The notes beneath the pieces were generated by a model. The model ran no database searches, was not told the origin of the DNA, and saw only the letters and a list, made by a program, of their open reading frames with translations. Below, one piece after another: positions 2,355 through 21,051 of a stretch of DNA of 64,000 nucleotides. Position numbers and translations under genes: made by a program. Origin of the DNA: Trypanosoma brucei (lineage: Eukaryota); NCBI GenBank assembly GCA_000002445.1, contig CM000207.1:2144001-2208000 (forward strand), written 5' to 3'. The number at the start of each line of letters is the position of its first letter. The stretch's first letter is position 1.

Positions 2355-2972
2355 TCACATGACGGTGCAACACCCAGAGTTTGTTTTCTTGGCTTGCTTG
2401 TAGAAGGTTTTGCTCGCCATTCCCAAATCCTCACTTTGTGCGACGAGGTCATCAATTTTCTGCCCGCGTTCAATAATCTGATCAATGGCGTTGTACATGA
2501 TAACTTTGGTGTCTTCTATATCTCGTTTGATCTTCAGAATCTTATCCTGTTCTTCTGGTTTCTGGTATTTCTCCAAAGTTTCCGTCAAATGTGGCCAACT
2601 GAGGAAGTTATCTTCCTTCCCATCAACGAGGTCGTATTTGCCGCGAAATGTGGTTTGGAATTGCTGAACGAGATCACCAAGTAACGTAAATGCCACACGG
2701 GAGTTATATTCCACATCACTAATGGCTAAAGCAACCAACCCATCGAATGTCGCATGAGCAAAGACAACATTGCCATTTTCTGTTATTTGTGTTTTAACAC
2801 CTTTGGCCACGCGGTTCGATACGGTACGGGTGAGAAACACTATGAATTCCCTTGCGGAGTTCCGCTGGAAGAATCCAAATGAACTAACGTCGATGGCCTG
2901 AGAGCATATGACGGGTTGCTTCTCCACACCACTTGGGTAGGGTTTTACAATTGCCAGGGAGTAAAGCTTCAT
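2355..2972 (-). CDS. YKT6: Ykt6-like longin R-SNARE, 205 aa. Start moved to MKLYSLAIV; the 44 residues before it in the ORF are encoded by T-rich intergenic sequence.
   Basis: N-terminal longin-like domain (MKLYSLAIVKP...VFAHATFDGLVALAISDVEYNSRVAFTLLGDL). C-terminal SNARE heptads (DIEDTKVIMYNAIDQIIERGQKIDDLVAQSEDL). The terminal ...KKTNSGCCTVM matches the CCxxM lipidation box of Ykt6 (CCAIM). Confidence 0.8.
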   Translation of the reverse strand: MKLYSLAIVKPYPSGVEKQPVICSQAIDVSSFGFFQRNSAREFIVFLTRTVSNRVAKGVKTQITENGNVVFAHATFDGLVALAISDVEYNSRVAFTLLGDLVQQFQTTFRGKYDLVDGKEDNFLSWPHLTETLEKYQKPEEQDKILKIKRDIEDTKVIMYNAIDQIIERGQKIDDLVAQSEDLGMASKTFYKQAKKTNSGCCTVM

Positions 2973-3027
2973 CGCAATGTTAATAATAAAAACAAAATCA
3001 ACAACTACGACAATATATGTATGCGCA

Positions 3028-3052
3028 CCAAAGAAGGCAAACGAAAAAAAAA
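3028..3052 (-). promoter_or_regulatory. Polypyrimidine tract on the transcribed strand upstream of the YKT6-like gene. Candidate trans-splicing and polyadenylation signal.
   Basis: Plus strand ccaaagaaggcaaacgaaaaaaaaa is a U-rich tract on the minus strand. It lies about 60-80 nt upstream of the ATG at 2972, with AG dinucleotides downstream. Confidence 0.45.
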
Positions 3053-3600
3053 TTCTTCTACCACAGACCTCTTCTTTTTTGTTCCCCACTTTGTGCTCCT
3101 CCACTTCTCAGACGCCTATGTTTTTTTTTCTTTTTCTTTTATAGCAATTAGAACACAAAGTAGAAAAGAAGAGTTAAATACGCTTATATATACTTATGTA
3201 TGTCACTTAAACGTAGCAGAGCTGCTGCCCACGTATAAATAATCAGTAAAGTAATACGTGAATTGTTAGAGCTGATTATATGTCAAATTTAACTCTCAGC
3301 TCCCGCCCTCCCCTTTTTTTCTTGCTTTTCTCTTGTGATATAATTGGTGATGGCGCCTTCTTTTTCCTTTTTTCCTTCTCCCTTTCTGCTTTTGTTGTTG
3401 TTGTTGTTGCTTTTATTGTCAATGCTGACCGGAATCGGCGGTTTTCAACTACCTTTCCTCCTTCCACGCGCGACACAAGAAGAAAGAAACTAAATTAAGG
3501 GAAAATATCAGTAACAATGATAATAATGATAATAATAGAATGAGAATGTAGGATAAGGCAACCAGGAAAGAAAAAGCGTATGTGAACGCAAACATATGCA

Positions 3601-5661: not shown

Positions 5662-5860
5662 CACACACAAATAACAGAAAATGAATCAAATAAAACGAGT
5701 TAAAAGACAGACAAAAGTCTCCATAAAATAAAAAGCGGCCTTGTGACCGTCACTTACCCCATGGAATTTAACAATAAATGCGTTATGCGAAGAGAATACG
5801 GAATAAAAATGTTGGCCGGGCGTGGCTGCGGGGAACCACACGTATAAATATGAACAGATC

Positions 5861-5908
5861 TATATATATATATATATATAGATAGATAGATAGATATAGA
5901 TATATAGA
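5861..5908. repeat. (TA)10 followed by (GATA)n.
   Basis: tatatatatatatatatata gatagatagatagatatagatatatagatg. Confidence 0.9.
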
Positions 5909-7950
5909 TGCGTGTATGGAATGAAAATGGAAAAAAGCAAAAACTTGGCAACTGTTGTAAGACGTGTAATCGATGTATTGGCGAGTGGGTGGGGGCATAT
6001 GTGTGTGTGGGAGGGGAGGGCGATCCTGCCACTATATAAAAAAAAGAAACAAAAAAAAGGAAACAAAACAAAACAAAGTTGGAAAAGCAGGAAACAAATG
6101 GAAGGATAAATAAATTTATCAGCTTGTTTGTTTTGGGTTTGGTTTGTTAAACCTCATCATGCACTTCTACCAGCCATACACACATACACACACACACACA
6201 TACAAACACCGCCAACACACCTTGCAAGTCCTCTGTGCATATTTCATATATATATATATATATATTATCCAACACACAAATGCACAAACGACAAAGAGAG
6301 TGTAACCAAATTTGCAATGCGTAAAAAAAAAAAAAATTACTTCCCCTTGATTCCTTGCGTTTTTTATTCCTTCTTATTTCTTTTCCTATAATTCCGCTTT
6401 CTTTTGCATATCCCATTAGGTTTTTTTTTCTGTTTGTATTCCAATTACGCCACTACTCTTTCCTCCTTTACCTTCACCTTTCTGTTCGTTTCTTTTCTTT
6501 TCTTTTCTTTTTCTCTTTTTTCTCTTTCTCTTTATCTCTTTTCCTCTACCTCCTCCCGCAACCAGCCTTTGAAGAAATATTAAAACAACCAAACAAAATA
6601 CCTTAACAAGAAAAGTAAAAAAAAGAAACAAACAAAAAGGTGAAGGTACAAGCAAAGAAAAGAAAGAAGTGGAATTGGGAGTAATCATGATGATGATTAT
6701 GTGTTGTGAGCCATAAGCCATGAAGCCGAACGCCAACAACAAATACAAAAGTAAAAAGGGAAAATGAAAGTGAAAGAGTGAAGGTCAGAAATTGGAACAT
6801 CAGCAGTAACAAATAAAGAGAAAAGGAAACCACAAGGTTTCATATCACATGTAAAAAAAAAAAAAAGAAAAAAAACTAGTAGAATCAGAGAACAACAACA
6901 ACAAAAAAAGGAAAAGAAACTCCTTCACCATCGAAGGGAGAGGGAAAAAGAAAATGAAAAAAAAAAAGAGAAACAGAGAAAGAAATAAAGAAATAAAGGA
7001 GGAAATCCCTTCCCCTTCTCCTTCTCATCCTTCCCTTTCCCTTTCTTTTTCTTTTTCTTTTTCTCTCTCATTCATTCATCATCTTTTTCAAAACAAACAC
7101 AAAATGCAACCAAAGCAAATATATATATATATATTACACAATCACACCTATGCACAAATACAAACACCTGACATGTAATGCAACAGGCAATTTATGTTTT
7201 TTTTATTTATTTTTTTTGTTCTTCCTCTTCTCGCCTTCTTTCTTTTTTTTTTCTCTTCTCCCTTCGTATATATCACGTTCCGTTGTTCATCATTGATTCC
7301 CTCACCGCCAAATTACATAAAAACACAAAACCGAAACGCCCCGTTAGTCGCGTGGTTTCAAGGGATGGTTACAGTTGCTGCAGTAAATTCGAGTCACAAT
7401 GTAGAGGTGTTGGAACAAAGCGTAAAACAGAAAGAAAAAAAAACAAAGTCAAATGAACAAACAAATAAAAAAAAGAAGAAACGAACTTTAAAAAAAAAAA
7501 AATCACGCCCTCCATGTACAAACAAGGGGCCAAGAATCAAAGGAAGTGGTCACAACTACGACCACACATCTATCTTTATCCTTTCCCCCTCATTCTGTGC
7601 AGGATATGCACTGACAGGAGAAAAGAGGGAATATTTTTTTTAATAAAAAAAAAAAGAAAGAAGAGAGTGAAGAATGTGAAGGGGAAAGGGAAAGGGAAGA
7701 ACTAAAGGATGAAGATTTTTTTAAAAAAAAAAAAGGGCACCAACCAACTAACAGCGAGCGCCTTTGAACCTTCCTCCCACAATTTCCCACCGTTTTTTTT
7801 CTGTTCCCTTCCCATTTTTTTTATTTAAAAAAAAAACTCCCTACTTGTCTTTTATCGCGTATGGTTTGGTTGCGGTTGGTGTCAATAGTAGCGTCGACAA
7901 ATATAAATAAACAAATATATATATATACAAATATATATATATATATACTG

Positions 7951-9588
7951 CTACCGGTTCCTATGCTTACGTCGGTTCACCTTCTCACTACCGCCACTAA
8001 CGGCCCCTACTGTTGCCTGTAGTTGCCGAAGCAGTGAGACGCCGTTACCGCCGTCAGATTTAAAGTGCAGTGCTCCCGAAGGTTTCTGCGCTACTGTCCC
8101 CGAGGCGGGGCGCTTCCATTGCTGGCTTTGAAGGCCGATAAGCTGCCGTAATTCCTCAGATGCCGTTAGTTGAGGTTCCACAGCGGGGTGACGGGAGTCG
8201 GGTCCCTTCTGAAGGTCCGGATGCGTCGAGAAGAGTGGCACATCCTCCGGTAGTCCCAATACATCCAACATGCCGCCGCCGCCACGAACTGCCGTGCACC
8301 CCGCAGCTTTTGTTGCTTGTTGTGGCGACTTTGAGGATCTGACAACAGCAACCTTCTGGTATTTTTCCTTTTGTTTTTGTCCCATTACGGGGGTGCTCCA
8401 ACGGTTGGCATGCCCTCGCCGGCATTTGTCCTTGCGTGAGCAGGGACGCTTGCCATCATCGGGGTCGTGACTAAAGCGGCATGCATCCCTGGTGCAGCCT
8501 ACACTAATATTCTCGCAGCATAGTCGAGTTTCCCAAAAAAATGTCTCCGATGGTTTCATCGCTGCAGCGTCCGTATCCGGTTCCTCTCTTCTATCACTTG
8601 ACCTATGTTCACTGCGGTCCTTCTTCGCATTGTTTCCCTCACTCCTTTTCCTACTATTGCTCCTGTCATCGTTCCTGTTTCTGTTGTTGTTGTTGTTGTC
8701 GTCGTCGTCATTACCGTTACCGCTACCGTTACCGTTGGTGTTGGCGTTGGCATTATTGTAGGCAGCACCCTTCATGTGGTCGGTAACATCTGACAGTTTC
8801 GCTCCTTCGTTTAGTTGTTTTTCCTTAGCCTCTTCCTTTCTTTTAGCAATCGCGAGCAACCGCTCCTGAGCGGCGCGAATCAAAGGTTCATGGGAGTCTG
8901 TGCGAAGCACTTCCTTCAGTACTTCCATTGCCATCTCAAGGCCCCTGTCATTCGCTTGCCGCTCCGGATCATTGAAAGACTCCGGACAAAGTGCAATATC
9001 GGGATGAGAGCATTTATCGGGTGAGTCATCCACAATGATGGTGTTTACAGCGTTAAAACTCTTTGGGTACGAGTCAAATATCCTTTGCAAATTCTTCACC
9101 GTATGATAAGGTTTATCAGGAGTTGGCCGCGCGCCGCATGAATCACGATACAGTTGAAAAAGCAAACGGTCCTGATACCCGTTGAGCACCTTGTCAATAA
9201 TAGGAATGGAGGTGCGCTCCAACCCGCTTGTCCACACGGCCACAACAAAATTGTTCATGACAAACCGCACGAATTCCTCCACACCGGGGCGATCAGCAAA
9301 ACTTCCCCGACCGCGTGCCACAAGCACACCATTCAAGTCAAGCACCAGAAGGAAGGCCCGATGCACGCTGTCAAGACGTACAGTTACATCATATCCATGA
9401 CGGGTGGCTATCACTGCGGTATCATTTACTTCATCAAGTGAAACAACGACGCCAATTTCCGAGCGCCCGTTCGACAGTTGCACGCGGACGTACTGGTCAA
9501 CTTCAAAACGCTTCGTGCGTATGGCACATGGGGCAAAATGCTCCATTGATAGACAAAATGGTGCAACGTTGTGAGATTCAATAAACAA
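7951..9588 (-). CDS. FCP1/NIF-family (HAD) phosphatase-like protein with an Asn/Asp-rich low-complexity linker and a C-terminal CCCH-type zinc finger, 545 aa.
   Basis: The NIF domain is clear: LLVLDLNGVLVARGRGSFADRPGVEEFVRFVMNNFVVAVWTSGLERTSIPIIDKVL ... NTIIVDDSPDKCSHPDIALCPESF. Against SCP1/Dullard these align as VVIDLDETLV ... RPHVDEFL ... LILDNSPASY. The catalytic box reads D-L-N-G-V, not D-x-D-x-T/V. The linker is NNANANTNGNGSGNGNDDDDNNNNNRNRNDD. The finger is C-x7-C-x4-C-x3-H (CCENISVGCTRDACRFSH), followed by further Cys/His residues. Confidence 0.85.
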   Translation of the reverse strand: MFIESHNVAPFCLSMEHFAPCAIRTKRFEVDQYVRVQLSNGRSEIGVVVSLDEVNDTAVIATRHGYDVTVRLDSVHRAFLLVLDLNGVLVARGRGSFADRPGVEEFVRFVMNNFVVAVWTSGLERTSIPIIDKVLNGYQDRLLFQLYRDSCGARPTPDKPYHTVKNLQRIFDSYPKSFNAVNTIIVDDSPDKCSHPDIALCPESFNDPERQANDRGLEMAMEVLKEVLRTDSHEPLIRAAQERLLAIAKRKEEAKEKQLNEGAKLSDVTDHMKGAAYNNANANTNGNGSGNGNDDDDNNNNNRNRNDDRSNSRKRSEGNNAKKDRSEHRSSDRREEPDTDAAAMKPSETFFWETRLCCENISVGCTRDACRFSHDPDDGKRPCSRKDKCRRGHANRWSTPVMGQKQKEKYQKVAVVRSSKSPQQATKAAGCTAVRGGGGMLDVLGLPEDVPLFSTHPDLQKGPDSRHPAVEPQLTASEELRQLIGLQSQQWKRPASGTVAQKPSGALHFKSDGGNGVSLLRQLQATVGAVSGGSEKVNRRKHRNR

Positions 9589-11107: not shown

Positions 11108-12670
11108 TTAACTTGGTTCAACGTATGACCGCCACAGCAACAACACCGCCCACAACCCAACAAGCCCCATAACCGATATATTAAACCACATCGGATACAC
11201 CTGCATCCATGTCACCTCATCAGCCGCCCGAAGTATATCTGCGCCACCGCCCCACGTCTCATTAACATGTGATCGCAACAATTCTCGAATACCATCACGT
11301 AACGTCATGAAAGAGGCCTTTCGCTGCCTTTTACTGTTCGTATTATTCCCTTTTTCTTTTGTTCCGTTAGAAAGGTTCCCACCCTTCGTTAACCGTTCCC
11401 GCTGCTTATCATTCCTCTCTTCCTCCTCTTCCTCCCTCTTCATGTCATCCAACGCATCCTTAGTCACGACACGCATATTAATTACGTCGAGTCTTATGAG
11501 TTGTATAAACAAAGAAACTAACATCGACTCGATATCCTTTTGGGATCCAATTGTAATTTCGACACTCTCAAGTGGATCACAAAAGCGTCTCCCCGGGAGT
11601 TCAGAAGCAAAGACCTTGACAGTGGGAGCAATGTGGATCACCTCCAGTCGGCATGGCACACCATAAAATCGAATGCGTGGAACAAGTAATTGAGATCGCG
11701 GCGCCTTTGCACGGAAAAGCATCAGCACCGGACTACAGCTCACAACAGACATGTGACCATGCTCGCATAAACGGCGGTACAGGAAAGGAAGAAGATCGAA
11801 CATGATATTATAATCCCTACAACGTTTACAGTTATCCGAGTAGTAATACACCAATGCAGGAGGTGTCACCAGAGGGGGAGGTAAGTACGGATATGAGCGG
11901 CGTCTGAAGAATTCTCTGGGCAGCCCAATGTTAGATTTACCGGACTGATTATGCGTCCCCGTCGAGTTTGAAGAGGAAAACAATACCGGTGGTTCTATGT
12001 GTGGTCCAATGAGTCTCTCCAAATCCACCCATGGAATATACGGAGGTCCGACATGACGGTCACGAGCGACAGCCGCTTGTGCTTCCAGCCACCACTCCCT
12101 CACTGCCTGCACATAATGGGCAATTTGTTCCGGCTCACTGTCCTGTTCCTCAAGATTAATGGCGCGCACAATATGTCGCCCCCTCACATTCCATGCGTAG
12201 TATTCAGTGGCCTGTGCAATAATCCCCGGTTTAACCATTAGCCACGGCATATTCTGATACGTTTCCTTCACCCTCTTGGCATACACAGTCCTCACATCTT
12301 CCGTGTCATTTGCAATACCTTCCAAGTTGTTGGTTAATCTTAAAACCTCATCCATTACGAAGTTGTGTGCCTCAGGAAACATACCCACCGTGCGGTTGGC
12401 GCGAATCCATTGCTCCATCTCCAAACGAAGTGACTGTTCATCAAATGACGACCACGGCTTTTGGCAGAGGGCACTGCAAAAAAGGGAAGAAGGCAACATG
12501 CGACGCGCCAATCGGTAATGGAAATGATGCACCAGGGGAAGACTGGGACATTGAGATGTCAAAGTGCTTCTTTTCTCTGGTATGCAGTCCGCAACAACCG
12601 CGCGGGTGACGACAAGAGAAAAAAATGATAAGGTAACTAAAATTATCCAAGTTTTCATATTGCATTGCAT
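11108..12670 (-). CDS. Hypothetical type I membrane protein, 520 aa, with a signal peptide, a C-terminal transmembrane segment, and a possible thioredoxin-like CxxC (CKRC) segment. Start moved to MQCNMKTW.
   Basis: ORF 11108..12856. The first 62 residues (..KVKKVKKKIKKKERG..REEEEEEGGG..) are encoded by a minus-strand polypurine stretch (a (CCT)n tract on the plus strand), so I start at MQCNMKTWIILVTLSFFSLVVTRAVVA, which looks like a signal peptide. The protein has an internal YYYSDNCKRCRDY CxxC box, an acidic stretch (REEEEEERNDKQRER), and a C-terminal hydrophobic segment VMGLVGLWAVLLLW. Confidence 0.75.
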   Translation of the reverse strand: MQCNMKTWIILVTLSFFSLVVTRAVVADCIPEKRSTLTSQCPSLPLVHHFHYRLARRMLPSSLFCSALCQKPWSSFDEQSLRLEMEQWIRANRTVGMFPEAHNFVMDEVLRLTNNLEGIANDTEDVRTVYAKRVKETYQNMPWLMVKPGIIAQATEYYAWNVRGRHIVRAINLEEQDSEPEQIAHYVQAVREWWLEAQAAVARDRHVGPPYIPWVDLERLIGPHIEPPVLFSSSNSTGTHNQSGKSNIGLPREFFRRRSYPYLPPPLVTPPALVYYYSDNCKRCRDYNIMFDLLPFLYRRLCEHGHMSVVSCSPVLMLFRAKAPRSQLLVPRIRFYGVPCRLEVIHIAPTVKVFASELPGRRFCDPLESVEITIGSQKDIESMLVSLFIQLIRLDVINMRVVTKDALDDMKREEEEEERNDKQRERLTKGGNLSNGTKEKGNNTNSKRQRKASFMTLRDGIRELLRSHVNETWGGGADILRAADEVTWMQVYPMWFNISVMGLVGLWAVLLLWRSYVEPS

Positions 12671-12710
12671 TTTTGCGTATTTACTCCTGCTATTTCTTAC
12701 TTTCCCTCCC

Positions 12711-12732
12711 CCCTCCTCCTCCTCCTCCTCCC
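12711..12732. repeat. (CCT)n trinucleotide repeat in intergenic DNA.
   Basis: ccctcctcctcctcctcctcctccc. On the minus strand this is (GAG)n. It explains the spurious poly-Glu N-terminal extension of the 11108..12856 ORF. Confidence 0.9.
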
Positions 12733-13622
12733 TTTTATTCTTCCTTGTATAATTGATGGTGTCGCCCCTTTCTTTTTTTTTTATTTTCTTTTTTACTTTT
12801 TTCACCTTCCTACTTCTTTCCCCTTCTACTACGCCGCTACACGGGCCACCAAACACCTAAGGCAGGAAGAGGTTAATGTTCAAGGGAATGAAAATTCAAA
12901 CGCAAAAGGAAGATAATAAGAAGAGAGAAAAATACAACAAGTGTAAATGTGCGAAAACAGAAAAAACGGTCATATGGAAGAATATATATATATATACGTG
13001 CATATATATAATATTTTTGTATGCGCCCTATGTAGTGACAGGCACTCTGCGTCACTGTTGCTGCGAAACACAGTGGCGGAAGAAGAAAATGCAACACATA
13101 AACATAAGAGGCGGGAACAGTAATGTATGAGTCGCTAAACAAAAAAAAAATAATAATAATAATGAAATGGTAGCGAGAAGAGGCAGCGAAGTGAGGTCCC
13201 CGGGTCAACTCTCCCGCTTATTCCTTTTCTTCATCATCTTGCCAAATTATAAATGAACACATAAAAATGTTCCCACCCCTTCACTATGTAGTAGCTAATG
13301 CAGTTTCCCCTTTCCTTGTAATTTTTTTCTTTGGTTTTACTTTTTCCCCTCCCCGCTTGTCTGCCTTCCACATGCAACGGGACACCATAACAGATCAAAA
13401 ATTAAGGAAAAAAAAATGCCGCAACACCTGAGGAACGTGGCGGCCCAACGCTAACGTCACCAACTAACCACATCAACAATAAGTTCACACATTTCACATC
13501 CCCATGATTTACAGACGGCAAAAATACAAAACAAGGTAACCTGAAAAATTAGTGAACAAAACAAAAGGAGTTAAGTGCACAACAATCAAACAAAGTCACA
13601 GAGTGCAGGTGTAAGAAAACAC

Positions 13623-16124: not shown

Positions 16125-17018
16125 CTATAGTTTTCCCAAATATATCGTCTTATCATCCACCCAGCGGTACGGCGGTACCTCCAAGTTAAGAGGGGCGGGA
16201 CCTTGACGAATACGACCTGAAGCGTCGTAATGACTGCCGTGACACGGACAGAAGAAGCCACCAAAGAGACCCTCGTTAGGAATGGGAATGCACCCGAGAT
16301 GAGTGCAAATAGCGATGACAACAGCCATTTCACGATGGTCAGGGAAGCGGGCCTCGTCCGTTTCGGGATGCTTCAGTGCACTGAGTGGAGTCCCCAGCAC
16401 ATCATTCATTTGGCGCTCTGAGCGGCGATAAACAAACACGGGTTTGCCCCGCCATACTACAGTCTTGCATTCACGGTCCTCTAGCTCACCCACCTCAGCC
16501 TCAATGTTCATTTGACCAACCATGGACATGGCCGGCTGTCCAACGTACCACAGCGGCAACACGGCATACCGCACCATAAGAATAACAAATCCCAACAATG
16601 CAGAATTCAGCGCATAGTCTGTGACGCGCGCACGGTCCTCTAATTCATTAGGCAACTTCGGTTTCAATATGTACTTGCGGAAAAACTCCTCGTCCCACAT
16701 GGAAGCGTCGTAATCCTTGAGAGCGACGCCGGCTGTGGCCTCAATGCGTCCCTCACGAGATCCCTCCGGATATGTGTTGAGAACAACCTCAGAAGAGGTA
16801 TCCACTGAACACAACGTTGGGTCGGAGTATTTGGCGTATCGGCCGTACTTGTCTGCCATCTCCTTCGATACGGGTGGTTTTAGAAATTCGTCGGACCATG
16901 AATTCACGGGTCTGTCCTTTACAGTTAATGGGTTGGAACCTTCAAGTTGCTTAAAGACCAGCGATACGCGAAGGAATGCCGTGGGTTGGAAAGCTGATAT
17001 GCAGGACCTGCGGAACAT
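16125..17018 (-). CDS. RISP: Rieske iron-sulfur protein of the cytochrome bc1 complex, mitochondrial precursor, 297 aa.
   Basis: Both 2Fe-2S ligand boxes are present in canonical spacing: CTHLGC and CPCHGSHYD. The Rieske C-terminus matches (GRIRQGPAPLNLEVPPYRW). The N-terminal presequence MFRRSCISAFQPTAFLRVSL is basic and hydroxylated. A hydrophobic anchor LLGFVILMVRYAVLPLW is present. Confidence 0.95.
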   Translation of the reverse strand: MFRRSCISAFQPTAFLRVSLVFKQLEGSNPLTVKDRPVNSWSDEFLKPPVSKEMADKYGRYAKYSDPTLCSVDTSSEVVLNTYPEGSREGRIEATAGVALKDYDASMWDEEFFRKYILKPKLPNELEDRARVTDYALNSALLGFVILMVRYAVLPLWYVGQPAMSMVGQMNIEAEVGELEDRECKTVVWRGKPVFVYRRSERQMNDVLGTPLSALKHPETDEARFPDHREMAVVIAICTHLGCIPIPNEGLFGGFFCPCHGSHYDASGRIRQGPAPLNLEVPPYRWVDDKTIYLGKL

Positions 17019-20049: not shown

Positions 20050-21051
20050 TCAATCAGTTAAAACACAAAGTGGAGAGGAAACGAACAGCTGATCCGCCGA
20101 TGTCACGGAAAACGTGTCATTGAACTTCGGACTCCACAACTTGCGTGGCCACTTCCTCTTCGCGGAGCGATCAGGGGCCTTCACAGCTTTTAGCCCCCTC
20201 CGCACACGAATCGTAGCGGTCACCTCGTAGCGCTCTCGCGACGCCCAAGCTAAGAGTAACTCCACAGGACACACCTTCTCAATCCACTGCTGCACAAGCT
20301 TCCGGGCTATCGCCTCACTCACTGTTGAGGGCCGCCAGACGGTAACGCCCTTCACTCCACCTTCTGTTGCCGCACTGTAAACAAATGTGGCGCCGACGTC
20401 TCCATCACGACCGCTACCAGCCAAACTACTGTAAGTATTCCCACCAGTCCCTTCTATTCTTCCATACCTTTCCCACGCGTCCAATACAGGGGTCTTTAGT
20501 GTGGCAAGTATAAACATGAGCAGAACCACTAGAAAATTTCTTTCGCCAAGCCGCCTAGACGCCCTGCGCTTCACCTTAAATCTTATCTCAAACATGTCGT
20601 TATGCCCCTGCGGCAAAAATGGCTCCGTCCATGAAAATTTTTCACAGAGAGTTTCGGTGGCATGAATGCGGCACGCTGCGTGGTAAAGCACCTTAGCTGA
20701 CGCGCAGTGCACGAGACGGAGTGCGACTTCTGACAATGAGAACAGCTCCGATGATTCCCACCTATTTAAAACCTCTTCACCATGGGTATCGTAAACATAT
20801 CTCAATTTCCCATCCATTAACACTTCGTAAGAGCGGGCGACGGCGCAGAATGCCTCTCTTGCCCTCGGGTTATTTGGGTTCTTATCGGGATGAAGCTGAA
20901 GAACTAAACTATGGTAGCTGCGTCGAATGGTTCTCTCATCCGCATCTTTGGGAACTTGCAACACCTCGTAGTACTTGCTGCGGTTCTCGAGAATCCAATT
21001 GATGCGAGTGTCATCCATCACTAGAAAACGATGAGTTTGTGTACAAGTCAC
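20050..21051 (-). CDS. J-domain (DnaJ-like) co-chaperone with a downstream transmembrane segment, 333 aa. The start may be the ATG at 21018 (MDDTRINW).
   Basis: J domain with the HPD tripeptide: YYEVLQVPKDADERTIRRSYHSLVLQLHPDKNPNNPRAREAFCAVARSYEVLMDGKLRYVYDTHGEE. Hydrophobic stretch NFLVVLLMFILATLKTPVL. Confidence 0.85.
   Translation of the reverse strand: MTCTQTHRFLVMDDTRINWILENRSKYYEVLQVPKDADERTIRRSYHSLVLQLHPDKNPNNPRAREAFCAVARSYEVLMDGKLRYVYDTHGEEVLNRWESSELFSLSEVALRLVHCASAKVLYHAACRIHATETLCEKFSWTEPFLPQGHNDMFEIRFKVKRRASRRLGERNFLVVLLMFILATLKTPVLDAWERYGRIEGTGGNTYSSLAGSGRDGDVGATFVYSAATEGGVKGVTVWRPSTVSEAIARKLVQQWIEKVCPVELLLAWASRERYEVTATIRVRRGLKAVKAPDRSAKRKWPRKLWSPKFNDTFSVTSADQLFVSSPLCVLTD

What the first reader, a model, noticed from the sequence alone, without database searches (positions are those of the whole stretch)
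7951..9588. NIF/FCP1-family phosphatase-like protein with a D-x-N substituted catalytic box fused to a CCCH-type zinc finger
The NIF (CTD-phosphatase-like HAD) fold is unmistakable (LLVLDLNGVLV ... IIVDDSPD). In the catalytic DxDx(T/V) box, the second Asp, which is the general acid/base in SCP1/FCP1/Dullard, is replaced by Asn (D-L-N-G-V). The same polypeptide carries a long Asn/Asp/Gly low-complexity linker and a C-terminal C-x7-C-x4-C-x3-H finger (CCENISVGCTRDACRFSH) with further Cys/His residues after it. A candidate pseudo-phosphatase or low-activity phosphatase joined to an RNA-binding-type zinc finger is an unusual architecture. It could act as a phospho-dependent or RNA-dependent regulator. 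Its 3' flank is also unusually long at about 2.3 kb.
Basis: partly seen in the sequence, partly recalled or inferred. Interest (0 to 1): 0.6.

Follow-up and report, generated by a model that had tools for sequence, protein, structure and literature searches.

The report
Known trypanosome NIF-CCCH granule protein
This is the already catalogued Trypanosoma brucei gene Tb927.9.14120, an mRNA-granule repressor protein; its phosphatase-like domain carries a strictly conserved Asp-to-Asn change that marks a whole, little-studied subfamily found in plants, fungi and kinetoplastids and probably makes it a phosphate binder, not a normal phosphatase.

Summary
The sequence features are real. The ORF (true ATG at 9546, stop at 7951, minus strand, 531 aa, 59.07 kDa) has a clear NIF/FCP1-type HAD domain with motif I reading D70-L-N72-G-V. 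It also has a low-complexity N/D/G linker and a C-x7-C-x4-C-x3-H finger.

It is not new. Published cloning primers and the published mass identify it as T. brucei Tb927.9.14120 (old Tb09.211.4670). This gene was listed as a CCCH protein in 2010. It scored as a repressor in a 2014 tethering screen. It was later reported in nuclear-periphery granules and stress granules, and as a proximity partner of the decapping enzyme ALPH1.

What I add:
- The Asn is not a private substitution. It is invariant in all 58 close relatives that cover motif I and in 100 of 101 more distant relatives (plants, fungi). The nucleophile Asp, motif II Thr/Ser, motif III Lys and motif IV Asp-Asp are all kept.
- An unnoticed N-terminal Tudor-like barrel precedes the NIF domain.
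- The finger fails Pfam thresholds in this protein but is homologous to true CCCH fingers at family level. It has been lost in T. vivax and T. congolense.

Most likely this is an Mg2+/phosphate-binding, catalytically crippled adaptor in mRNA decay or repression complexes. The 2.3 kb 3' flank is long but ordinary.

The parts
7951..9546 (-). Coding sequence of T. brucei Tb927.9.14120 (531 codons plus stop). ATG at 9546-9544, TAG at 7953-7951.
   Evidence: The published ORF primers ATGGAGCATTTTGCCCC and CTACCGGTTCCTATGCTT match uniquely at both ends. The computed mass of 59,066 Da equals the 59.066 kDa published for Tb927.9.14120.
9373..9513 (-).
   Evidence: AlphaFold2 gives four or five strands with pLDDT 93-97. 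Foldseek matches the PHF1, PHF19 and MTF2 Tudor domains with target TM-score 0.79-0.86, rmsd 0.8-1.5 A over about 50 residues, and E about 1e-3. The family-invariant residues are Q18, V20, I31, G32, T48, G51 and Y52. Only one conserved aromatic is among them, so no obvious aromatic cage.
8902..9351 (-). NIF / FCP1-homology HAD domain (aa 66-215).
   Evidence: Pfam PF03031, E=1.2e-17. Foldseek to CTDNEP1 8ujl at E=3.6e-9 and to SCP1 3l0y/1ta0 with target TM-score 0.70.
9325..9339 (-). Motif I, D70-L-N72-G-V74. D70 is the nucleophile position. N72 (AAT, 9331-9333) replaces the general acid/base Asp.
   Evidence: Profile alignment to UBLCP1 (LDIDYTL) and CTDNEP1 (LDLDETL). D-x-N is present in 158 of the 159 motif-I-covering stretches among the relatives examined.
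9226..9234 (-). Motif II, W105-T106-S107.
   Evidence: It aligns to F-T-A-S of CTDNEP1. Position 106 is T or S in 118 of the 119 distant relatives (one gap), and W and S are nearly invariant.
9094..9096 (-). Motif III, Lys151.
   Evidence: It aligns to the K of CTDNEP1 'IKDLS'. It is K in every relative that covers the column (59 of 59 close relatives; 116 of 119 distant ones, the other 3 being gaps).
9025..9030 (-). Motif IV, D173-D174 (the Mg2+ ligands in HAD enzymes).
   Evidence: It aligns to ILDNSP of CTDNEP1 and MFDD of UBLCP1. It is DD in about 95% of distant relatives. The following K178 is also nearly invariant.
8773..8889 (-). Long conserved helix after the NIF domain (aa 220-258; P221, L222 and I223 invariant or nearly so).
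   Evidence: AlphaFold2 helix 220-258 with pLDDT above 90 up to about aa 250. Invariant columns are listed.
8557..8772 (-). Disordered N/D/G/R/S-rich low-complexity linker (aa 259-330). It is specific to T. brucei and varies in length between strains.
   Evidence: pLDDT below 50. It is absent from the other species in alignment A1. Composition is given. A 98%-identical copy carries a 6-nt in-frame insertion here.
8410..8520 (-). Zinc-finger module (aa 343-379): C343, C344, x6, C351, x4, C356, x3, H360, DPDDG, then C369, x5, C375, x3, H379.
   Evidence: The eight ligand positions and the D-D-G turn are invariant or nearly so in the 31 orthologues that have a finger. pLDDT is 88-93. The family profile hits TTP, TIS11d, CPSF30 and MBNL1 at E 3e-11 to 5e-8. 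PF00642 is reached by 27 of 47 orthologues but not by this protein.
7996..8043 (-). Short conserved C-terminal helix (aa 502-517, ..GVSLLRQLQATV..) within an otherwise disordered tail.
   Evidence: The LLRQLQA-like motif is conserved from Bodo to Trypanosoma. AlphaFold2 predicts helix 502-517 with pLDDT about 65-77. Its partner is unknown.
5690..7950 (-). 3' flank: the 3' UTR of this gene plus the 5' processing region of the next gene in the polycistron. It is AT-rich and low-complexity.
   Evidence: Length 2261 nt, against a window median of 728 and a range of 105-2546. It contains only simple repeats. No Rfam family and no large ORF lie here. Where the 3' UTR ends is inferred, not shown.

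Best explanation
The ORF is Trypanosoma brucei Tb927.9.14120, a kinetoplastid-conserved protein of cytoplasmic mRNA granules.

From N to C terminus it has:
- a Tudor-like barrel;
- a NIF/FCP1-type HAD domain;
- a long helix;
- a species-specific disordered linker;
- a CCCH zinc-finger module;
- a disordered tail with one short conserved helix.

The NIF domain belongs to a eukaryote-wide subfamily (kinetoplastids, plants, fungi). In this subfamily motif I is D-x-N-G-(T/V) instead of D-x-D-x-(T/V). The nucleophile Asp, the motif II Thr/Ser, the motif III Lys and the motif IV Asp-Asp are all strictly kept. Only the general acid/base Asp is replaced, and always by Asn.

Shown:
- the gene's identity, its architecture and this conservation pattern (this work);
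- repression of a reporter mRNA when fragments of the protein are tethered to it (published);
- reported localisation to nuclear-periphery granules, and to starvation stress granules (published);
- BioID proximity to the decapping enzyme ALPH1 that depends on ALPH1's N-terminal region (published).

Inferred:
- The pocket still binds Mg2+ and a phosphoryl group but cannot turn over phosphomonoesters at a normal rate.
- The domain therefore works as a phospho-ligand reader or trap, or as a very slow phosphatase. It docks the protein onto a phosphorylated partner in decay or repression complexes.
- The finger adds an auxiliary and evolutionarily dispensable RNA or protein contact. The conserved barrel-plus-NIF core carries the essential function.
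For: Identity:
- The published primers match the ORF ends, and the mass is 59.066 kDa.
- The T. cruzi and L. major orthologue masses, 56.16 and 64.46 kDa, match the 2010 CCCH table row Tb09.211.4670 / Tc..506999.120 / LmjF35.1510, class 7/4, 7/4, 7/5.

Fold and motif:
-.

Conservation:
- DLNG (one DING) is present in all 58 close relatives that cover the motif.
- D-x-N is present in 100 of 101 distant relatives.
- D70, T/S106, S107, K151, D173, D174 and K178 are conserved at about 95-100%.
- The relatives include Sphagnum, Papaver, Erigeron and Cunninghamella.
- Fungal NIF proteins with DXNXT were independently classed as pseudophosphatases (PMC13216928).

Effect of D+2 to N:
- Tt Pah2 D148N (DxNxT) binds Mg2+ and tungstate but is completely inactive (PMC12657724).

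Cell biology, all from the literature:
- PMC10415143.
- PMC4055773, Table S3 sheet 2: PGKB ratios 2.77, 3.15 and 2.05.

Finger is dispensable:
- The cysteines are lost in T. vivax, T. congolense and four further orthologues, while the barrel and NIF domain are unchanged.

Between two T. brucei-group copies:
- aa 1-265 show 0 nonsynonymous and 3 synonymous changes.
- The rest shows 6 nonsynonymous and 0 synonymous changes.
Against: - No activity or ligand-binding measurement exists for this protein or any D-x-N relative that I could find.
- Perfect retention of the nucleophile and the metal and phosphate ligands fits a working enzyme with altered chemistry equally well.
- The ALPH1 proximity is 'class B' significance only.
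- The tethering effect is moderate and comes from fragments of the protein.
- The Pah2 result is from a different HAD family and was obtained in a truncated (delta-helix) construct that had also lost membrane binding.
- I could not inspect the model coordinates. The geometry of the pocket and the position of the barrel relative to it are therefore unknown.
Confidence: 0.55

Rival explanations
1. The D-x-N NIF domain is a working hydrolase or phosphotransferase with altered chemistry. It acts on substrates whose leaving group needs no protonation (phosphoanhydrides such as nucleotide or cap-derived di/triphosphates, pyrophosphate or acyl phosphates), or it uses another residue or a partner protein as the general acid/base.
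For: - Every catalytic HAD residue except the general acid is invariant across kinetoplastids, plants and fungi, and the replacement is always Asn, not random drift.
- D-x-N-G-T resembles the D-K-T-G-T box of P-type ATPases. Those also lack the acid and use a phosphoanhydride donor (my own knowledge; a lead, not a test).
- The protein lies close to ALPH1, an enzyme that cleaves the cap triphosphate bridge.
- The 2026 fungal paper stresses that motif degeneration does not always abolish activity.
Against: - Engineered D+2-to-N HAD phosphatases are inactive.
- No family-wide candidate for a replacement acid is visible in the alignment. K178 is the only extra invariant residue, and H181 is kinetoplastid-only.
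- No biochemical data exist.
Confidence: 0.25
2. The protein is primarily a sequence-specific RNA-binding regulator working through its CCCH finger. The NIF domain is a passive scaffold.
For: - The finger family profile matches the RNA-binding fingers of TTP, TIS11d, CPSF30 and MBNL1.
- The protein is in RNA granules and represses when tethered.
- It gave a positive signal on 1 of 3 poly(A)+ RNA protein-array slides.
Against: - The finger cysteines are lost in T. vivax and T. congolense and in four more orthologues, whereas the NIF pocket is invariant.
- In Trypanosoma the finger has lost the Gly and the aromatic residue before the third Cys, and it fails Pfam thresholds.
- The array signal was not reproducible: ratios 1.04, 1.53 and 1.32 on one sheet, and 0 of 3 slides positive on a second sheet.
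- A passive scaffold would not be expected to keep D70, T106, K151, D173 and D174 across eukaryotes.
Confidence: 0.12
3. The Asn is functionally neutral decay. The whole NIF domain is an inert structural remnant and only the disordered C-terminal half matters, for example by driving condensation into granules.
For: - The C-terminal half is disordered and low-complexity, which is typical of granule proteins.
- The tethering hits came from fragments.
Against: - The N-terminal 260 residues are by far the most conserved part: 61% mean column identity across Kinetoplastea.
- Between two T. brucei-group copies this part shows no amino-acid change, against 6 changes in the tail.
- The linker is absent outside T. 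brucei.
Confidence: 0.05

Closest known systems
[quoted passage not shown]
   Same: It is the same gene. The primer matches are exact, the ORF is 1596 nt on the minus strand, the mass is 59.066 kDa and the finger is C-x7-C-x4-C-x3-H.
   Different: Nothing differs at the sequence level. None of the papers I could search mentions the D-x-N box, the Tudor-like barrel or the link to plant and fungal D-x-N proteins.
Fungal NIF-domain 'DXNXT' pseudophosphatases (S. pombe, Aspergillus, Neurospora, Talaromyces; PMC13216928, 2026)
   Same: They have the same motif I substitution in the same Pfam domain. A fungal (Cunninghamella) protein with D-x-N is among the closest non-kinetoplastid relatives.
   Different: That paper calls the group fungal-specific, but the subfamily also contains land-plant and kinetoplastid proteins. 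Among 133 further relatives scanned with Pfam (mostly non-kinetoplastid), none has a CCCH finger, and the barrel is matched only by the closest of them.
SCP1/CTDSP1, CTDNEP1 (Dullard), FCP1 and UBLCP1: active DxDx(T/V) NIF phosphatases
   Same: They share the fold (Foldseek E 4e-9 to 1e-5; target TM-score up to 0.70), the nucleophile Asp, and motifs II to IV.
   Different: The general acid/base Asp is Asn here. Sequence identity is only about 20%. This protein has no BRCT, UBL or membrane anchor. Instead it has a Tudor-like barrel and a CCCH finger.
TIM50 (yeast and human), the classic HAD-fold pseudophosphatase
   Same: It has the NIF fold (Foldseek 4qqf/3qle, E about 2e-7) and a non-canonical motif I. 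UniRef automatically names several orthologues 'TIM50'.
   Different: Fungal TIM50 lacks the canonical DXDX(T/V) residues altogether, whereas this protein keeps everything except D+2. This protein shows no sign of a presequence or a transmembrane segment, and it has been localised to cytoplasmic granules. The TIM50 name is an annotation artefact.
TTP/TIS11d, CPSF30 and MBNL1 CCCH zinc fingers
   Same: The ligand order and spacing match, as does the K-T-x-L-C...C-x-F-x-H context. The family profile gives E 3e-11 to 5e-8.
   Different: There is a single finger, not a tandem pair. Trypanosoma has x4 instead of x5 between the second and third Cys and has lost the (F/Y)-G before the third Cys. It also has an extra invariant Cys next to the first ligand and a trailing C-x5-C-x3-H triad, which suggests a second zinc site (not demonstrated).

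Membership tests
NIF / FCP1-homology HAD phosphatases (Pfam PF03031) | HAD Rossmann-like fold with the NIF-specific insertion; profile match above the gathering score | tested here: met
   64.4 bits against a cutoff of 21.8. Foldseek matches SCP1, CTDNEP1, TIM50, UBLCP1 and Fcp1.
NIF / FCP1-homology HAD phosphatases (Pfam PF03031) | Motif I D-x-D-x-(T/V): nucleophile Asp plus general acid/base Asp at +2 | tested here: not met
   The motif reads D70-L-N72-G-V74. N72 aligns with the second Asp of UBLCP1 and CTDNEP1. It is Asn in 158 of the 159 motif-I-covering stretches examined.
NIF / FCP1-homology HAD phosphatases (Pfam PF03031) | Motif II Ser/Thr, motif III Lys, motif IV acidic pair | tested here: met
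   T106/S107, K151 and D173-D174 are invariant in the orthologues and about 95-100% conserved in distant relatives.
NIF / FCP1-homology HAD phosphatases (Pfam PF03031) | Mg2+-dependent phosphoserine/phosphothreonine phosphatase activity | not testable with these tools
   I found no published assay for this protein. An engineered DxNxT Pah2 is inactive.
D-x-N ('DXNXT') NIF pseudophosphatase subfamily | Asn at D+2 with the nucleophile retained, and nearest relatives sharing the substitution | tested here: met
   Every motif-I-covering stretch among the 179 proteins examined (the best representative-library hits plus the earlier orthologues) is D-x-N (158), with one D-x-K and no D-x-D. W-[TS]-S and DD-S-x-x-K are also shared.
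D-x-N ('DXNXT') NIF pseudophosphatase subfamily | Lack of catalytic activity (the 'pseudo' in the name) | not testable with these tools
   This is predicted from the motif only, both here and in PMC13216928.
CCCH zinc finger (Pfam PF00642 and relatives) | C-x7-8-C-x4-5-C-x3-H ligand pattern | tested here: met
   C343-x7-C351-x4-C356-x3-H360. Only 64 of 200,000 shuffles give such a pattern. All ligands are invariant in the 31 orthologues that carry a finger.
CCCH zinc finger (Pfam PF00642 and relatives) | Profile match above the curated threshold | tested here: not met
   This protein has no PF00642 hit at E<=1, and zf-CCCH_2 gives E=0.27, or 12.3 bits against a cutoff of 25.8. At family level, 27 of 47 orthologues hit PF00642 (best 3.4e-8), and the family profile hits TTP and CPSF30 at about 1e-11. 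It is therefore homologous but degenerate in Trypanosoma.
CCCH zinc finger (Pfam PF00642 and relatives) | Zinc binding and single-stranded RNA binding | not testable with these tools
Tudor domain (methyl-lysine/arginine readers) | Five-stranded SH3-like barrel | tested here: met
   Foldseek matches the PHF1, PHF19 and MTF2 Tudor domains with target TM-score 0.79-0.86 and rmsd about 1 A, but E is only about 1e-3. pLDDT is 93-97.
Tudor domain (methyl-lysine/arginine readers) | Aromatic cage of three to four conserved aromatic residues | tested here: inconclusive
   Only Y52 is a conserved aromatic among the invariant barrel residues. I could not inspect the coordinates, and no Pfam Tudor hit was found. 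The barrel is best called Tudor-like.
TIM50 (name given to orthologues by UniRef) | Mitochondrial inner-membrane protein with a presequence and a transmembrane anchor | not tested
   I ran no targeting-signal or transmembrane prediction. Published tagging places the protein in cytoplasmic and stress granules. The name comes from an automatic rule.

The most novel reading that the evidence does not exclude
The D-x-N-G-(T/V) NIF domains form a distinct functional class of HAD modules. Like P-type ATPases (D-K-T-G-T), they would accept a phosphoryl group on the conserved Asp from a phosphoanhydride or acyl phosphate. Lacking the general acid/base, they would hold it as a long-lived aspartyl phosphate. 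The domain would then be a phospho-switch, or a processing enzyme for cap-derived or 5'-end phosphoanhydrides. In kinetoplastids it would be wired to the ALPH1 decapping complex through the barrel and the CCCH finger.
Probability: 0.1. Interest if true: 0.75.

Novelty: already known. Interest (0 to 1): 0.3.

Why it matters
The gene itself is annotated and has appeared in several T. brucei screens, so the window does not reveal a new element.

The useful residue is a hypothesis about a neglected protein class. A NIF subfamily with more than 1000 sequence clusters spans plants, fungi and kinetoplastids. It keeps every HAD catalytic residue except the general acid, which is always Asn. That pattern is not what simple decay to a dead scaffold predicts.

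In trypanosomes this domain sits in a repressor found near the unusual ApaH-like decapping enzyme. If the pocket reads or slowly processes a phosphorylated ligand, it would link phospho-signalling to mRNA decay. That matters in an organism that regulates genes almost entirely after transcription.

It would also correct two points in the record. One is the 'TIM50' labels on the orthologues. The other is the 'fungal-specific' label given to the DXNXT group.

Tried and rejected
- phmmer of the single protein against PDB sequences gave only a spurious low-complexity hit to RSC4. The orthologue profile was needed.
- An exact-sequence look-up of the window protein found no contig. The 98% copy sits on an unnamed 2.2 kb Logan contig, so the organism could not be named that way. 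Identity came from the published primers and mass instead.
- The afdb50 fold library was unavailable.
- Rfam on the whole window found nothing. Tandem-repeat scanning of the flanks found only simple repeats. The long 3' flank hides no recognisable element.
- Pfam on seven neighbouring ORFs showed unrelated genes (longin/synaptobrevin, Rieske, DnaJ), so there is no functional clustering.
- Literature searches for the old T. brucei ID and for the Leishmania and T. cruzi orthologue IDs returned nothing.
- The 'NLI interacting factor' gene in a T. cruzi UBP1 paper is a different locus.
- I rejected the TIM50 name carried by orthologues as an automatic annotation.
- I rejected a methyl-lysine-reader role for the barrel as unsupported, because no aromatic cage is conserved.
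Full report
**What is in the sequence**

The window has the layout of a trypanosomatid polycistron. All 23 ORFs of at least 200 aa lie on the minus strand and are separated by AT-rich, low-complexity spacers. The flagged ORF runs from 9588 to 7951 on the minus strand, but the TTG at 9588 is only a mechanical start. The first ATG is at 9546 and gives 531 aa, 59,066 Da and pI 8.9.

**Identity**

- A 2010 catalogue of TriTryp CCCH proteins lists an unnamed 'conserved' protein, Tb09.211.4670 / Tc00.1047053506999.120 / LmjF35.1510. It has one finger of class 7/4 (T. brucei), 7/4 (T. cruzi) and 7/5 (L. major), and masses of 59.1, 56.2 and 64.4 kDa (PMC2873481, Table S1).
- My masses for the window protein and for its T. 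cruzi and L. major orthologues are 59.07, 56.16 and 64.46 kDa.
- The Gateway primers published for Tb927.9.14120 are ATGGAGCATTTTGCCCC and CTACCGGTTCCTATGCTT (PMC4055773, Table S6). They match the window once each, exactly at the ATG (9530-9546, minus) and over the stop codon (7951-7968, plus).
- The MaxQuant mass given for Tb927.9.14120 is 59.066 kDa (PMC10415143, Table S1).
- The window is therefore T. brucei chromosome 9, and the ORF is Tb927.9.14120.

**What the literature already says**

Erben et al. 2014 annotate the gene as 'NIF superfamily phosphatase domain'. They list it among the best repressors in a genome-wide tethering screen, with PGKB survival ratios of 2.77, 3.15 and 2.05. On their protein microarray it bound poly(A)+ RNA on only one of three slides (ratios 1.04, 1.53 and 1.32). 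It bound on none of three slides in a second sheet.

Kramer and colleagues call it an NLI-interacting-factor-like phosphatase with a CCCH motif. They report three things (PMC10415143 and PMC6326799):
- It is a post-transcriptional repressor.
- It is a component of nuclear-periphery granules and of starvation stress granules.
- It is a BioID partner of the decapping enzyme ALPH1 at class B significance. The signal is lost when ALPH1's N-terminal region is removed or when only the catalytic domain is used.

The NIF-plus-CCCH architecture is therefore published. No paper I could search mentions the D-x-N box.

**The NIF domain and the D-x-N box**

Pfam NIF matches at E=1.3e-17. An AlphaFold2 model built on 47 orthologues has pLDDT above 90 for aa 11-260. 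Foldseek matches it to CTDNEP1, SCP1/2/3, TIM50, UBLCP1 and Fcp1.

A profile of 20 orthologues aligns LDLNGvL to LDIDYTL of UBLCP1 and to LDLDETL of CTDNEP1. The same alignment gives the other motifs:

| Position | Role | Equivalent in canonical NIF enzymes |
|---|---|---|
| D70 | nucleophile | first Asp of motif I |
| N72 | general acid/base position | second Asp of motif I |
| T106 | motif II | Thr |
| K151 | motif III | Lys |
| D173-D174 | motif IV | acidic pair |

**The Asn is a subfamily hallmark, not a private change**

DLNG is present in every kinetoplastid orthologue that covers the motif (one sequence has DING). A profile search of 1.84 billion cluster representatives returned 3864 hits at E<=1e-3 and 1144 at E<=1e-10.

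I realigned all 179 proteins collected up to that point. Of the 159 stretches that cover motif I, 158 read D-x-N, one reads D-x-K and none reads D-x-D. The named relatives include Sphagnum, Papaver, Erigeron and the fungus Cunninghamella.

In the 119 more distant relatives:
- The nucleophile Asp is present in 101 of the 101 that cover it.
- Motif II is W-[TS]-S. Position 106 is T or S in 118 (one gap) and S107 is S in 113.
- K151 is present in 116 of the 116 that cover it.
- D173 is present in 108 and D174 in 109.
- An extra Lys (K178) is present in 111.

A 2026 survey of fungal pseudophosphatases independently describes a NIF-domain group with a 'DXNXT' motif. It calls the group fungal-specific (PMC13216928). 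My search shows that the group is much wider.

**What the Asn is likely to do**

In the lipin-type HAD phosphatase Tt Pah2, the engineered DxDxT-to-DxNxT mutant (D148N) still binds Mg2+ and tungstate in crystals. It is 'completely inactive' (PMC12657724), although in a truncated construct that also fails to bind membranes.

By analogy, the D-x-N NIF pocket should bind metal and a phosphoryl group but not turn over phosphomonoesters. The strict retention of all other catalytic residues across eukaryotes argues that the pocket is used. It argues against an inert relic. It cannot distinguish a phospho-ligand reader or trap from an enzyme with altered chemistry, so I keep the latter as the main rival.

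**Other parts of the protein**

1. Barrel. Residues 12-58 form a small beta-barrel with pLDDT 93-97. Foldseek matches it to the Tudor domains of PHF1, PHF19 and MTF2 (target TM-score 0.79-0.86, rmsd about 1 A, E about 1e-3).
   - It is conserved throughout the kinetoplastid orthologues.
   - In the profile search, the N-terminal profile positions are matched only by the closest relatives.
   - Only one aromatic residue (Y52) is conserved, so a methyl-lysine cage is unlikely.

2. Linker. The N/D/G-rich linker (aa 259-330) is found only in T. brucei and is disordered. A 98%-identical copy from another sample has a 6-nt insertion there.
   - All six amino-acid differences between the two copies lie after aa 265.
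   - The three synonymous differences lie in aa 48-119.

3. Finger. C343-x7-C351-x4-C356-x3-H360 is unlikely by chance (64 of 200,000 shuffles).
   - It fails Pfam thresholds in this protein, but 27 of 47 orthologues reach PF00642.
   - The family profile hits TTP, TIS11d, CPSF30 and MBNL1 at 3e-11 to 5e-8.
   - Bodonid orthologues have a textbook C-x8-C-x5-C-x3-H with K(Y/F)G. Trypanosoma has lost one residue and the aromatic-Gly pair.
   - Eight ligand positions (C343, C344, C351, C356, H360, C369, C375, H379) and a D-D-G turn are invariant or nearly so. This suggests a two-zinc module, but structure searches were uninformative.
   - The cysteines are lost in T. vivax, T. congolense and four other orthologues, while the barrel and NIF domain are unchanged. 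The finger is therefore dispensable in some lineages.
   - None of 133 further D-x-N relatives scanned (mostly non-kinetoplastid) carries a CCCH finger, so the fusion appears specific to kinetoplastids.

4. C-terminal helix. A short helix (aa 502-517, LLRQLQA) is conserved from Bodo to Trypanosoma. Its partner is unknown.

**Surroundings**

The 3' flank is 2261 nt. This is the second longest of 22 inter-ORF intervals in the window (median 728, maximum 2546). It contains only simple repeats, no Rfam family and no large ORF. It is best read as a long 3' UTR plus the processing signals of the next gene, which is common in T. brucei (my own knowledge). Neighbouring genes are unrelated in function.

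**Verdict**

The object is an already annotated and partly characterised gene.

The new points are modest but real:
- The Asn defines a pan-eukaryotic NIF subfamily with an otherwise intact active site.
- The protein has an unreported Tudor-like barrel.
- The finger is degenerate and evolutionarily dispensable.

My best explanation is a catalytically crippled, phosphate-binding adaptor in mRNA repression or decay complexes (confidence about 0.55). The main rival is an enzyme with altered chemistry (0.25). Simple biochemistry on the N-terminal 260 residues, with N72D and D70N controls, would decide between them.

Noticed in passing
window 1-64000: All 23 ORFs of at least 200 aa lie on the minus strand. 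The window is one directional polycistronic unit of T. brucei chromosome 9. Neighbours include a longin/synaptobrevin SNARE (2355-3104), a Rieske protein (16125-17018) and a DnaJ protein (20050-21051).
   Followed up: partly
window 8557-8772 (-); L001: The AAC/GAC-rich tract encoding the N/D/G linker varies in length. A 98%-identical copy (Logan ERR7929156) has a 6-nt in-frame insertion. All six amino-acid differences between the two copies lie after aa 265, and the three synonymous differences lie in aa 48-119.
   Followed up: yes
orthologues P0006 (T. vivax), P0046 (T. congolense), P0040, P0043, P0044, P0045: The zinc-finger cysteines are lost in these orthologues, while the barrel and the DLNG NIF domain stay unchanged where the sequence covers them. 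P0046 is only a C-terminal fragment (302 aa), which probably reflects a truncated gene model.
   Followed up: partly
window 8410-8520 (-): An invariant Cys doublet (C343, C344) and a trailing C369-x5-C375-x3-H379 triad give eight conserved ligands. This could mean two zinc sites sharing the doublet. Structure searches could not test it.
   Followed up: partly
P0047 (EukProt, 1141 aa): One relative carries ASF1 histone-chaperone and BMT5-like methyltransferase domains upstream of the barrel-NIF unit. This is most likely a gene-model merger of neighbouring genes and not a real fusion.
   Followed up: no
orthologues P0003, P0004, P0005, P0015 and others: UniRef names many orthologues 'Mitochondrial import inner membrane translocase subunit TIM50'. 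This appears to be a rule-based mislabel of a cytoplasmic granule protein.
   Followed up: partly
window 7915-7947: An (AT)16 microsatellite begins only a few bases after the stop codon. Further AT-rich and pyrimidine-rich simple repeats fill the 3' flank (5856-7265).
   Followed up: no
window 11108-12856 (-): The upstream neighbour (582-aa ORF from a mechanical GTG start) has no Pfam domain. By eye it shows a hydrophobic stretch near each end, so it may be a membrane protein.
   Followed up: no
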